NCBI RefSeq assembly: GCF_006345805.1
Contig: NC_042998.1
Coordinates: 147,002,001-147,066,000, forward strand
Direction: 5' to 3'
DNA length: 64,000 nt
From: Octopus sinensis
Lineage: Eukaryota
This document shows positions 55,606 through 58,499 of the stretch, in pieces. Within the stretch, counting starts at the first letter, position 1. Each line of letters begins with the position of its first letter. A program made the translations under genes and the position numbers. The notes under the pieces were generated by a model that made no database searches, was not told where the DNA came from, and saw only the letters and a program-made list of their open reading frames with translations.

Positions 55606-56536
55606 TTAATCATTGATCCGGTACTCCCACTTCTTTGTACGCAAGAAAACTTTCTTAAACTTACCCATTGAAATTTCCACGTAGCTAATTTAAATGACAT
55701 ATTCAATTCAAATAGTACTGCTTTCTTCATTCTCTCAAATCCCATACGAATAATTCTTTCTGGTGTAACCAACCATTCATTCCCCCTTTTTTAACTAATG
55801 CATGAGATTTAATTTTAATGTAATGTTTATTTATATTAATTAAAGATGACCTAATATTCTAGACTTGAGTACTGAGTTAGGGTATGAAGTTTTCGGTACA
55901 TTTATTCTATTCCATTCCCATTTCTTCCGAATTTTATCTCTTCATTAATATTTCCTTGTTTCTTTTTTTCTTCAATACTAGTATTCCTCCTTTTGCTGAC
56001 ACCTTTGAAATTTTCAATTTATCTCTTAAATTCCTTTCACACCACTAATATAAATGTAAACAATAAATTTGACAACCTCTTGATCTACTACAGCCGGTAG
56101 TACTAGCTATTTAGATCTACATCAAATGAAAGAAACTGCTATGTCTCTTATCTTCATTATCTATCAACTGAAATATGTCCACGATGCAGTAAAAACCTGC
56201 TGTTTAATTTATTTCCCTGATATTCTGAACTCTACTATCTCTCACTGTATTTATCGGAAATAACTCGAAATATACTTCAGTATTACTAATAAAATGTGGT
56301 TTGAAGAGATAGTAGTCGCGCCTTAACCGATCGTTGTATGGATTTAAATAATTTCTTATAAGTATAAACCAACATGTAAATTGATGAAATGCTTCCACTA
56401 ATTATTTATTGAGACGATCATAACCGACCAATGAAAATATGCTATAACATCGCCTTCATTCCTACATTTGCTCTTACCCCCTCTCTCTCTCCATTTATGT
56501 GGATATGTGTGTTGAAGCGTATATATATATATGTAT

Positions 56537-56618
<82 letters not shown>

Positions 56619-56979
56619 GTATACATACATGTATGTTTGTGTATATATATGCGCGTCTATGTGTTTGTATGTATGTATGTATGTATGTATGTATGTATGT
56701 ATGTATGTACTCGCTTTTATCCTTCGAAACGTAAAGTAGATGAAACCATAGCGACTGAAGAAGGGGTTTTTCTTTGTGTTAATTGTCCTGTACTCTATTT
56801 TTTTTTGTTGTTTTTAAAAAAATGTCCAGTTCTTTTGGTTTGTGTCTATGTTTTCGTTTCTCATTGTGTTCGACGTCCCTTTGGTGTCCTGTACTCATAT
56901 ATGCGTGTATATGTACATGTAGAGGTAGGTACGTACATATGTGTTTATATATATATATGCATATGTTTTATTTCATTTA

Positions 56980-57015
<36 letters not shown>

Positions 57016-57320
57016 ATCCAAACAAGAAAACACAAAAAAACACAACAACGCGAGGACGTGGAAAAAATATAGTATTATTGGACGCTGGGACAAGAACGCA
57101 AAACATTCAAATAGACGACACAAAAAACGGACGGGTCATTCGAAGCCTCTAATCTTCAGTCAAGAACCGGATCATCCTCGCAATTTCGGCTGATTAATCT
57201 TGAGATCGCTCCGATCCAGCCAGCCCCAAGGAAAAACTAAGCTACGAGCATTAGATTTCTTGGAAAAAGGATCGAATATATACGAAACAAGGACAGAAAA
57301 ACGGACGATGTCACACGAAT

Positions 57321-57660
57321 GGTGGTGACCCCCTTCGGTCAGACACTGACCATGGGTTTGCACCTAGAGAGTTACCCTCTGAGGTACAAGTCTGGGCAAG
57401 GTTGTTTTATGGAAGACCAGCAGTCGCCCATGTATACCGGCCTCCCCACTCCATGTCACCGATGTTGTCCAAGGGAAAGGCAAGGGCCGATACAGCTTGG
57501 CACCTGTGACGTCGCAACTCATTTCTACAGCTGAGTGAACTGGAGCAACGTGAAATAAAGTGTCTTGCTCAAGAACACAACACGCAGCCCGGTCCGGGAT
57601 TCGAGCCCACAACCTCACGATCGTAAGCTCGATGCTCTAACCACTGAGCCACGCGCCTTC
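57321..57660 (-). mobile_element. SINE family A, full length
   Basis: GAAGGCGCGTGGCTCAGTGGTTAGAGC head through the GACCGAAGGGGGTCACCACC tail. Confidence 0.9.
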
Positions 57661-57674
57661 ACTGGAGAAAGACG

Positions 57675-57746
57675 TTCCCATGCCGGGAATCGAACCCGGG
57701 CCGCCTGGGTGAAAGCCAGGAATCCTAACCACTAGACCACATGGGA
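57675..57746 (-). tRNA. trnE-TTC: tRNA-Glu (anticodon TTC); intact cloverleaf, probably a retroposed copy
   Basis: TCCCATG/CATGGGA acceptor stem, CCTGG-CTTTCAC-CCAGG anticodon arm, CCGGG-TTCGATT-CCCGG T arm; 72 nt, no CCA. Confidence 0.93.
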
Positions 57747-58499
57747 AACCACTAGACCACATGTCACACGAATATAAATACAAAAAACAATAATAATAAT
57801 AATAACAGGACAAAAACAGCGGGTGTCTTACGACTTTAGACAGTTCAACTTAGCTTAGCTGGCGTATTTGGAAAATAACGCCTTACGGCAGACGAAGAAA
57901 TCGATGTTGTCGTGGCGGTGCTCAGAAGCCGAAAGGCTTGTTGACCGGCGGTCACGTGAGAGGAGAAGAGAGAGAAAAAAGAGGGGCAAAGGAATCAAAG
58001 AGAGAGAGAGAAAAAGAGGGACAAAGGCACCAAAGAGGGGAGAAGAGAGAGAAAGAAGGAATTAAAGAGGGGGAAGAAAGAGAGCGTGCCAAGGATTGGC
58101 TTGACAACAGAAAGGCAGGGTCAATGAGGTGCAAAGTGAGAAAGACAGAGAAATGTGAGAGAGTGGGGGAAGAGGAGACCAAAGAATCAGAGGCGAGAAA
58201 AGAGAAAGACAGAGACTAGTGAAGTATAGAGAAAGCGTGTGTAGAAGTCGTACAGTAGTGGGATGCTTACATACATAGAAGAGAACAAGGTGTACGTTAC
58301 GCCGCAATAATATATGTATAAAAAAATATATATAAAAATACAAAATGGGACAAGAACGCGTGGTTGATATATATATGAATGTATGTATGGTTGTGTCTGT
58401 GTTCGTGTGTATATGCATATATGTATGTACGTATGTATATGGTTTAAAAACAGCCTTCATTTTCACCTTTCGAAACTTATTCATGATTACCTCGAAAGG

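What the first reader, a model, noticed from the sequence alone, without database searches (positions are those of the whole stretch)
57308..57773. Intact tRNA-Glu and a full SINE retroposed together inside one 13-bp target-site duplication
Seen: ATGTCACACGAAT at 57308-57320 and 57761-57773 flanks, on the minus strand, a duplicate of tRNA 5' sequence (GTGGTCTAGTGGTT, joined to the TSD through CAT microhomology), a perfect tRNA-Glu(TTC) without CCA, a 14-nt trailer with only TTT, and a full-length SINE ending in CACCACC. Inference: Pol III read through a weak terminator of a real tRNA gene into a SINE, and the dimeric transcript was retroposed. This is a route for spreading functional tRNA genes or a nascent dimeric SINE. 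The 5' duplication looks like a template jump.
Basis: partly seen in the sequence, partly recalled or inferred. Interest (0 to 1): 0.72.

Follow-up and report, generated by a model that had tools for sequence, protein, structure and literature searches.

The report
Precursor tRNA-Glu fused to SINE retrocopy
A complete glutamate tRNA copy and a full-length SINE lie fused inside one 13-bp target-site duplication, most likely because a retrotransposon's reverse transcriptase jumped from the SINE RNA onto an unfinished tRNA transcript; this is a known kind of chimeric retrocopy and is common in this genome.

Summary
On the minus strand a 440-bp insert (57321-57760) lies between two identical 13-mers. 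It holds a 14-nt repeat of tRNA positions 7-20, an intact tRNA-Glu(TTC), a short spacer and a full-length young SINE. Eleven uninterrupted paralogs of the host repeat carry the 13-mer once, so the whole insert went in as one event.

No other locus in the assembly has this junction. The first 9 spacer bases (CGTCTTTCT) equal the trailer of one tRNA-Glu gene (C29:16127465-16127554) up to its T-run. Thirteen of the 14 loci with that trailer are fused within or just after that T-run to at least six different retroposon sequences, and 11 of the 13 have a 5'-truncated tRNA. At least 60 loci join various tRNAs plus their trailers to one LINE/SINE tail module.

Best reading: reverse transcription began on the SINE RNA. 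It then likely jumped to the 3' end of a terminated pre-tRNA-Glu, and jumped once more, which gave the 5' repeat.

This is a new member of the known template-switch chimeras (U6/L1, U6/SINE). This scan noted similar cases before on other DNA. No daughter copies were found, and expression could not be tested.

The parts
57761..57773 (-). Target-site duplication, copy at the 5' side of the insert (ATTCGTGTGACAT on the minus strand). Its last three bases, CAT, overlap tRNA positions 4-6 (microhomology).
   Evidence: Present once in 11 uninterrupted host-repeat paralogs.
57747..57760 (-). Partial second copy of tRNA-Glu, positions 7-20 (GTGGTCTAGTGGTT). It ends in the D-loop and is read as the product of a last template jump. 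Its final GTT also equals the last 3 nt of the source-like gene's leader, so the boundary is uncertain by 3 nt.
   Evidence: The junction of this piece with the tRNA start is unique in the genome at up to 1 mismatch. Leader of the gene.
57675..57746 (-). Complete tRNA-Glu(TTC) from position 1 to the discriminator base, with no CCA.
   Evidence: ARAGORN. Rfam RF00005 66.5 bits. 72/72 identity to genes L131 and L135.
57666..57674 (-). Pre-tRNA 3' trailer CGTCTTTCT. It is identical to the trailer of the gene at C29:16127465-16127554 up to the first T of its TTTT terminator.
57664..57665 (-). Two junction bases (CC) that belong neither to the gene's trailer nor to the SINE's usual 5' end. Inferred to be untemplated bases added at the jump.
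   Evidence: Comparison. The origin is inferred.
57321..57663 (-). Full-length tRNA-derived SINE, from (A)GTGAAGGCGCGTGGCTCAGTGG to GGGGGTCACCACC. It belongs to a young, very abundant family.
   Evidence: 5395 first-look candidates, and the 39 other full-length matches scored are 97-98% identical; both ends coincide with the family's ends, and the best pairwise identity is 98.5%.
57308..57320 (-). Target-site duplication, copy at the 3' side of the insert.
57297..57301 (-). First run of four or more T downstream of the tRNA start (T5). It is the predicted end of any Pol III transcript that starts at the tRNA copy.
   Evidence: Use as a terminator is inferred.
57086..57307 (.). Host repeat, left part. 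Thousands of copies in the genome, 87-98% identical among those fetched.
57774..58359 (.). Host repeat, right part.

Best explanation
This is a single chimeric retrocopy that was most likely made when a LINE reverse transcriptase, copying a SINE RNA at a nicked site in an older repeat, jumped from the SINE's 5' end onto the 3' end of a terminated, not yet 3'-trimmed pre-tRNA-Glu.

Shown directly:
- One 440-bp insert lies between identical 13-bp duplications of a site that is single in uninterrupted copies of the host repeat.
- The SINE is complete at both ends.
- The tRNA is complete, carries no CCA, and is followed by 9 nt of the trailer of one particular tRNA-Glu gene.
- That same trailer is fused, at graded points within or just after its T-run, to many other retroposon sequences elsewhere in the genome.

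Inferred order of events:
1. Target-primed reverse transcription starts on the SINE's (ACC)n-type tail.
2. The enzyme runs off the SINE's 5' end and adds about two untemplated bases (CC).
3. It jumps to the 3' end of a pre-tRNA-Glu whose U-tail had been nibbled back to CGUCUUUCU, and copies it to position 1 (or to a 3-nt leader).
4. It jumps a second time, onto a tRNA-Glu piece ending in the D-loop (position 20).
5. The new DNA is joined to the upstream target end through the CAT microhomology.

Predicted and untested: the copy keeps the tRNA's internal promoter and has no terminator before the flank. If transcribed, it would therefore give a tRNA-SINE dimer RNA.
For: 1. One event and a real duplication. 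The 13-mer is exact at both ends. Eleven uninterrupted host-repeat paralogs have it once, as ATGCCACACGAAT or a close variant, and two further rows of the same listing showed 15- and 16-nt gaps. The window's private variant (T at the fourth base) is present in both copies, so the site was duplicated after that change. No repeat flanks the tRNA part alone (longest AGTGGT) or the SINE part alone (longest TTTCT).

2. No genomic template for the junction.
- tRNA 3' end followed within 5-35 nt by the SINE head: only the window and C8846:84255.
- tRNA end plus CGTCTTTCTCC at up to 1 mismatch: only the window, plus one hit that continues differently.
- Any B-box tRNA plus the exact SINE head: only the window.
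- The 5' repeat junction: only the window.

3. The tRNA partner was a terminated precursor. No CCA is present. The trailer equals the C29 gene's trailer for 9 nt and stops inside its TTTCTTTT terminator. The gene's further downstream sequence is absent.

4. Recurrence with graded ends. 14 loci carry the tRNA-Glu end plus CGTCTTTCT.
- One is the gene, with its native downstream DNA.
- The other 13 are fused after 9 nt (3 loci, the window among them), 10 nt (3), 11 nt (5), 12 nt (1) or 12-14 nt (1).
- The partners are a 45-nt tail module 'X' (5 loci), a SINE 'Y' at three different internal points (3), this SINE (1), two other SINEs at their heads (2), a LINE reverse-transcriptase fragment (1) and an unidentified sequence (1).
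- The tRNA is 5'-truncated at 11 different positions in 11 of the 13, which is the usual mark of retrocopies.

5. The second tRNA-Glu/SINE dimer (C8846) carries another gene's trailer: CGTTATATTTT, from the gene at C22:4851752. The two dimers are therefore independent events.

6. The process is general. 25 tRNA-Glu/X fusions carry many different trailers. 60 fusions of tRNA plus trailer with X were found. In 17 of the 25 non-Glu loci examined, ARAGORN found a full tRNA: Arg, Lys, Leu x2, Asp x6, Asn, Ser, Gly, His x4.

7. An unprocessed form is captured too. C7:106305846 has the C29 gene's 8-nt leader and 13-nt trailer fused to X between TA repeats.

8. Published precedent.
- U6/SINE and U6/L2 chimeras are ascribed to template switching (PMC4476161, passages read).
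- Tripartite chimeras are ascribed to double jumps (PMC2104539, abstract read).
- A SINE head swap is ascribed to a jump onto a tRNA (PMC5729268, passages read).
Against: - The jump itself cannot be seen in sequence. Ligation of the two RNAs before reverse transcription would give nearly the same product.
- The two junction bases (CC) are ascribed to untemplated addition without proof. They could instead come from an upstream start of the SINE transcript.
- The assembly has 13516 contigs. A source locus could lie in unassembled DNA or have been lost.
- The genome search scores only its best candidates, and pattern scans need exact matches, so diverged copies of the junction could have been missed.
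- The orthologous empty site in other individuals or species could not be examined.
- The X module always joins at the same point, (A)AAT|GGCGG. A simple random-jump model does not explain this.
Confidence: 0.65

Rival explanations
1. RNA ligation first. The 3' end of the pre-tRNA-Glu was ligated to the 5' end of a SINE RNA, as proposed for U6/L1 chimeras, and the joined RNA was then retroposed through the SINE tail.
For: It would give the same architecture: one duplication, a terminated precursor 3' end, and a full SINE 5' end. The preprint 10.1101/2025.02.02.635956 names ligation and template switching as alternatives for Alu/L1 and U6/L1 chimeras (passages read).
Against: There are extra bases at several junctions: CC here, AT or ATAG in C8846, and AT and AA before the two other SINE heads. 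These are easier to ascribe to untemplated addition by a polymerase. The SINE 'Y' and the LINE fragment are joined at internal points, which would need broken RNAs as ligation partners. The 5' partial tRNA repeat needs a jump or a second ligation in any case.
Confidence: 0.17
2. Pol III read through a weak terminator of a genomic tRNA-Glu gene into a SINE lying just downstream, and the dimer transcript was retroposed.
For: The spacer has only TTT. The insert has no run of four or more T. The C29 gene's terminator is interrupted (TTTCTTTT).
Against: No such source locus is in the assembly. The spacer departs from the C29 gene's DNA exactly inside the T-run. Twelve other fusions of the same trailer, to other sequences and at graded T-run positions, would need 12 further tandem source loci. 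Other fusions follow T7 to T13 runs that should stop Pol III.
Confidence: 0.05
3. Two separate insertions or a DNA-level rearrangement. Either a tRNA retrocopy landed exactly at the 5' edge of a resident SINE (or the reverse), or recombination joined them.
For: None specific. SINE and tRNA copies are both very numerous.
Against: A single 13-bp duplication brackets the whole insert and no inner duplication exists. The junction lies at the SINE's exact 5' end and at a transcript-like tRNA 3' end. The same pattern recurs at many loci.
Confidence: 0.03

Closest known systems
U6/SINE and U6/LINE template-switch chimeras: U6-Mon-1 in platypus, U6-AnolisSINE2 in lizard, U6/L1 in mammals (Doucet et al. 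2015, PMC4476161, passages read)
   Same: A complete small Pol III transcript is fused head-to-tail to the 5' side of a SINE or LINE copy. A target-site duplication flanks the whole. The fusions recur and are ascribed to a jump of the LINE reverse transcriptase, including LINEs that recognise a specific tail.
   Different: Here the captured RNA is a pre-tRNA with part of its 3' trailer, not U6. The SINE is full-length. There is a third piece, a partial tRNA, at the 5' end.
Tripartite chimeric retroelements from double template jumps (Gogvadze et al. 2007, PMC2104539, abstract read)
   Same: Three RNA-derived pieces lie inside one short direct repeat (14 bp there, 13 bp here). A SINE is among the pieces.
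   Different: There the three pieces come from three different RNAs of a fungus. Here two of the three pieces come from the same tRNA species.
Origin of PittSINE by a jump from a SINE RNA onto a tRNA (Suh et al. 2017, PMC5729268, passages read)
   Same: A reverse transcriptase copying a SINE RNA is proposed to switch to a tRNA, which gives a tRNA-headed chimera flanked by a duplication.
   Different: In PittSINE the new tRNA replaced the old head, and the product amplified into a family. Here the old SINE head is kept, giving a dimer, and no daughter copy exists.
Pre-tRNA retropseudogenes and tailless retropseudogenes (Schmitz et al. 2004, known to me only as cited in PMC4476161)
   Same: Unprocessed tRNA precursors serve as templates for LINE-driven reverse transcription.
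   Different: Those are free-standing tRNA copies without a retroposon tail. Here the precursor is carried by a SINE.
tRNA/L1 chimeras in mammals (preprint 10.1101/2025.02.02.635956, passages read)
   Same: tRNA sequence and a retrotransposon are inserted in one event with a duplication.
   Different: Those are mostly tRNA halves in antisense orientation and are ascribed to twin priming. Here a whole sense tRNA with its trailer is present.

Membership tests
Template-switch chimeric retrocopy (U6/L1 type) | Two or more RNA-derived segments joined head-to-tail in the same orientation. | tested here: met
   Partial tRNA, tRNA plus trailer, and SINE all lie on the minus strand.
Template-switch chimeric retrocopy (U6/L1 type) | One target-site duplication around the whole insert, and none around the parts. 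| tested here: met
   13/13 identical repeats. The site is single in 11 uninterrupted paralogs. No inner repeats.
Template-switch chimeric retrocopy (U6/L1 type) | The 3' segment is a retroposon whose own 3' tail abuts the duplication. | tested here: met
   The SINE ends in GGTCACCACC, as the family's other copies do.
Template-switch chimeric retrocopy (U6/L1 type) | The 5' segment ends at the natural 3' end of a cellular transcript, not in genomic downstream DNA. | tested here: met
   The trailer stops inside the terminator T-run of the C29 gene. Graded ends are seen in the 13 fusions.
Template-switch chimeric retrocopy (U6/L1 type) | Independent recurrence with different partners and junctions, and no shared master junction. 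| tested here: met
Template-switch chimeric retrocopy (U6/L1 type) | The join is made by the reverse transcriptase during target-primed synthesis rather than by RNA ligation. | not testable with these tools
   Sequence alone cannot separate the two. The extra junction bases are only suggestive.
Dimeric SINE family or read-through transcript of a tRNA-SINE tandem | A source locus with the same junction but without this duplication. | tested here: not met
   Only the window matches. The assembly may be incomplete.
Dimeric SINE family or read-through transcript of a tRNA-SINE tandem | Several copies that share the junction (amplification). | tested here: not met
   One copy only. The other dimer (C8846) has a different trailer from a different gene.
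Functional tRNA gene | Cloverleaf, anticodon and internal promoter sequence identical to bona fide genes. | tested here: met
   Rfam 66.5 bits. ARAGORN calls Glu(TTC). 72/72 identity to L131 and L135.
Functional tRNA gene | A Pol III terminator (T4 or longer) shortly after the 3' end. | tested here: not met
   The first T-run of four or more is at 57301, about 370 nt downstream.
Functional tRNA gene | Transcription and processing of this copy. | not testable with these tools
The remaining stretch is swamped by repeat copies.

The most novel reading that the evidence does not exclude
The retrotransposon reverse transcriptases of this genome habitually jump onto the oligo-U ends of nascent Pol III transcripts. 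One tRNA-Glu gene alone seeded at least 13 fusions, and at least ten tRNA species are joined to one tail module. That would be a running supply of tRNA-headed proto-SINEs and of scattered intact tRNA genes. The window's copy is a rare fully intact product: a working tRNA-Glu promoter driving a tRNA-SINE dimer RNA that ends at the flank's T5 and keeps the SINE tail. It would therefore be both a live tRNA gene and a dimeric SINE caught before its first amplification.
Probability: 0.2. Interest if true: 0.6.

Novelty: new member of a known kind. Interest (0 to 1): 0.4.

Why it matters
The locus itself is an ordinary, if unusually clean, example of a chimeric retrocopy.

What gives it some value is the context found around it. 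The source-like gene, its exact trailer and a graded series of 3' ends can all be read in one genome. They show that terminated pre-tRNAs, not read-through transcripts, are the partners. This is the step long proposed for the birth of SINE families, namely a tRNA head joined to a LINE or SINE tail. Here it can be counted locus by locus.

The process also scatters intact tRNA gene copies, which matters for tRNA gene annotation in repeat-rich animal genomes.

Tried and rejected
- Sequencing runs. 24 runs were listed. Laying 57200-57682 on X1, X2, X6 and X8 gave tens of thousands of short contigs from paralogous SINE and host-repeat copies. No piece spanned the locus. The loose ends at 57320 match the uninterrupted host repeat and cannot be assigned to this locus. 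Nothing was learned about an empty allele, other species or expression.
- Rfam at E up to 1. Apart from the tRNA, it gave only weak mir-297-like hits on TG/TA microsatellites and one sub-threshold hit on the SINE head. The SINE head is not recognised as a tRNA.
- A family of dimers. The C8846 dimer first looked like a second copy (91% identity), but its trailer comes from another gene.
- A simple tandem duplication as the origin of the 5' repeat. This was rejected because the first unit lacks TCC and starts inside the target duplication.
- Retroposon 'X' inserting by target preference at tRNA terminators. This was rejected as the main cause. By the ungapped walk, 22 of the 25 tRNA-Glu/X loci do not start at tRNA position 1. 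Two of them start at position 3, and L084 is scored as truncated only because of an indel. Short repeats or TA runs flank whole chimeras. That repeat detection was crude and weak for several loci.
- Earlier notes of this scan by place and by sequence gave nothing.
- Paper searches for a description of tRNA-trailer/SINE fusions in cephalopods or in general found none. This shows only that these five term sets found none in the open library.
- No supplementary files were opened.
- The organism was not determined.

Full report
**What is there**

All sequence is read on the minus strand.

| Window coordinates | Feature |
|---|---|
| 57773-57761 | ATTCGTGTGACAT (13-mer, first copy) |
| 57760-57747 | GTGGTCTAGTGGTT, identical to tRNA positions 7-20 |
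| 57746-57675 | complete tRNA-Glu(TTC) |
| 57674-57661 | spacer CGTCTTTCTCCAGT |
| 57320-57308 | the same 13-mer again |

- ARAGORN finds the tRNA, and it is the only tRNA in the window.
- Rfam's tRNA model gives 66.5 bits against a gathering score of 29.
- The tRNA is 72/72 identical to other tRNA-Glu genes of the genome.
- The 13-mer occurs exactly twice in the 64 kb. At up to one mismatch, 100 shuffles gave a mean of 0.12 matches.

An alignment of the ends of 29 other SINE copies shows that the family begins (A)GTGAAGGCGCG.

**One insertion**

The flanks belong to a repeat with thousands of copies. In the window it spans about 57086-58359 apart from the insert.

- Among the fetched paralogs in which both flanks are present, 11 have exactly 13 nt between them: ATGCCACACGAAT or a close variant. 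Two further rows show 15 and 16 nt.
- The uninterrupted repeat thus carries the 13-mer once.
- The window's private T at the fourth base is present in both copies, so the duplication is younger than that change.
- No direct repeat brackets the tRNA part or the SINE part alone.
- The SINE is young. The 39 other full-length matches scored are 97-98% identical, and the best pairwise value is 98.5%.

**Not read-through**

The genome has 2.72 Gb in 13516 contigs. It was scanned in four ways for the junction.

| Scan | Result |
|---|---|
| tRNA-Glu 3' end followed within 5-35 nt by the SINE's A-box region | window and C8846:84255 only |
| tRNA end plus CGTCTTTCTCC, up to 1 mismatch | window, plus one locus that continues differently |
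| any B-box tRNA within 12-42 nt of the exact SINE head | window only |
| junction of the 5' repeat with the tRNA start, up to 1 mismatch | window only |

So the assembly holds no tandem source locus and no daughter copy.

**Where the tRNA part came from**

The 9-nt trailer equals the start of the trailer of a tRNA-Glu gene at C29:16127465-16127554 (cgtctttcttttattctttctttttt). It stops at the first T of that gene's TTTT.

A scan for the tRNA end plus CGTCTTTCT found 14 loci. Searches showed what follows in each.

- One locus is the gene, with its native downstream DNA.
- The other 13 continue into foreign sequence after 9 nt (3 loci, the window among them), 10 nt (3), 11 nt (5), 12 nt (1) or 12-14 nt (1).
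- The foreign partners are:
  - a conserved 45-nt tail module, here called X (5 loci);
  - a SINE, here called Y, at three different internal points (3 loci; one search shows that one of these joints lies inside Y's internal repeats);
  - the window's SINE (1 locus);
  - two other SINEs at their heads (2 loci);
  - a fragment encoding a LINE reverse transcriptase (1 locus);
  - an unidentified sequence (1 locus).
- In 11 of the 13 the tRNA is truncated at its 5' end, each at a different position (8, 9, 9, 11, 15, 23, 28, 35, 38, 47, 57). Only the window and C29:11457356 have it whole.

A graded set of ends within or just after a terminator T-run, joined to unrelated partners, is what terminated and partly nibbled pre-tRNAs would give. 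Read-through would instead carry the gene's own downstream DNA.

A further locus, C7:106305846, holds the same gene's 8-nt leader and 13-nt trailer fused to X between TA repeats. Wholly unprocessed transcripts are therefore captured too.

**The second dimer**

C8846:84209 has a 5'-truncated tRNA-Glu, a different spacer (CGTTATATTTTATAG) and the same SINE at 91% identity. Its trailer is that of another gene, C22:4851752 (cgttatattttttcc). Two X fusions also carry that trailer. The two dimers are independent events and not a family.

**A general process in this genome**

- A scan for the tRNA-Glu end, 6-36 nt, then X found 25 loci with many different trailers.
  - By an ungapped walk, 19 of the 25 start at tRNA position 5 or later, 2 start at position 3 and 3 at position 1. 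One more (L084) is whole but was mis-scored because of an indel, and the value for L085 is also distorted.
- A scan with a generic B-box found 60 loci, 13 of them Glu.
  - ARAGORN was run on the 25 non-Glu loci that had been fetched. It found a whole tRNA next to X in 17: Arg, Lys, Leu(CAA), Leu(AAG), Asp x6, Asn, Ser, Gly, His x4. It found none in 8.
  - Most trailers end in T-runs of up to 13 T, directly followed by (A)AATGGCGG.
- X is also the 3' end of a very abundant SINE.

**Mechanism**

The shown facts fit the model published for U6/L1, U6/L2 and U6/SINE chimeras. In that model the LINE reverse transcriptase, after priming on the nicked target, runs off the 5' end of its template and continues on the 3' end of another RNA (PMC4476161, passages). 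Double jumps that give three-part elements inside one short repeat are described in PMC2104539 (abstract). A jump from a SINE RNA to a tRNA is proposed for PittSINE in PMC5729268 (passages).

Applied here, all of the following steps are inferred:
1. Priming on the SINE tail.
2. Run-off at the SINE's 5' end, with CC added.
3. A jump to a pre-tRNA-Glu ending CGUCUUUCU. That RNA was already cut at its 5' end, or kept a 3-nt leader; the GTT before position 1 fits both.
4. A second jump onto a tRNA-Glu piece ending at position 20 in the D-loop.
5. Joining to the target through CAT.

The main rival is ligation of the two RNAs before reverse transcription, which the preprint 10.1101/2025.02.02.635956 names as an alternative for such chimeras (passages). 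Sequence cannot exclude it.

**Consequences**

The insert has no run of four or more T. The first T5 lies at 57301-57297. If the tRNA's internal promoter fires, the transcript would be a tRNA-SINE dimer with the SINE's tail, able in principle to yield tRNA-Glu and to be retroposed again. This is a prediction. No daughter copy exists, and expression could not be tested.

**Limits**

- The genome search scores only its best candidates, and pattern scans need exact matches, so all counts are lower bounds.
- The assembly is fragmented at its margins.
- The detection of short flanking repeats around the X fusions was crude.
- The organism was not determined.
- No orthologous locus was seen.
- The paper searches cover only the open library. 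No supplements were opened.
- This scan had noted similar pre-tRNA/SINE chimeras before on other DNA. I did not test those notes.

Noticed in passing
L064-L118 (for example G000:C2:129922474-129922526 and C2:195264791-195264851): At least 60 loci join a tRNA 3' end plus its trailer or T-run to a conserved ~45-nt module (GGYGGTGCCCCAGCATGGCC... CTGAAAC) followed by a microsatellite-like tail. The joint always lies at the same base, (A)AAT|GGCGG or CAGC|GGTGG. Why the joint in the module is constant is unexplained. The module may exist as a discrete short RNA, or the enzyme may stop at a fixed structure.
   Followed up: partly
L131 = G000:C29:16126036-16129054 (gene at C29:16127465-16127554): One tRNA-Glu gene with an interrupted terminator (TTTCTTTT) appears to be the source of at least 13 fusions, plus one leader-bearing retrocopy (C7:106305846). 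It is a striking hot spot compared with the dozens of other tRNA-Glu genes.
   Followed up: partly
G000:C28:8017199-8017258 (not fetched): A tRNA-like 3' end (TTCGATTCCCAGACCGGGCG) with the trailer TTGCGTGTATTTATTTT, fused to X, resembles the end of the window SINE's tRNA-like head and the bases after it (CCCGGACCGGGCTGCGTGTTGTGTTCTT). This hints that the SINE itself arose from a pre-tRNA with its trailer.
   Followed up: no
L126 = G000:C7:26577161-26580179: A tRNA-Glu copy that starts at tRNA position 9, plus an 11-nt trailer, is fused directly to a fragment that reads like a LINE reverse-transcriptase coding region. This direct tRNA/LINE chimera could point to the enzyme responsible.
   Followed up: no
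G000:C9:76006000-76133000: A dense cluster of dozens of identical tRNA-Glu(TTC) genes lies on both strands within about 130 kb.
   Followed up: no
window 56499-56966 and 58375-58439: TG/TA-rich microsatellite stretches give sub-threshold mir-297, mir-466 and mir-3149 hits in Rfam (all far below the gathering scores). These are chance matches to simple repeats.
   Followed up: no
window 57086-58359: The host repeat is about 830 bp without the insert and has thousands of copies at 87-98% identity. Bases 58307-58359 match sequence that lies just before the repeat's left end in other copies, which suggests terminal or tandem repeats. Its class was not determined.
   Followed up: partly
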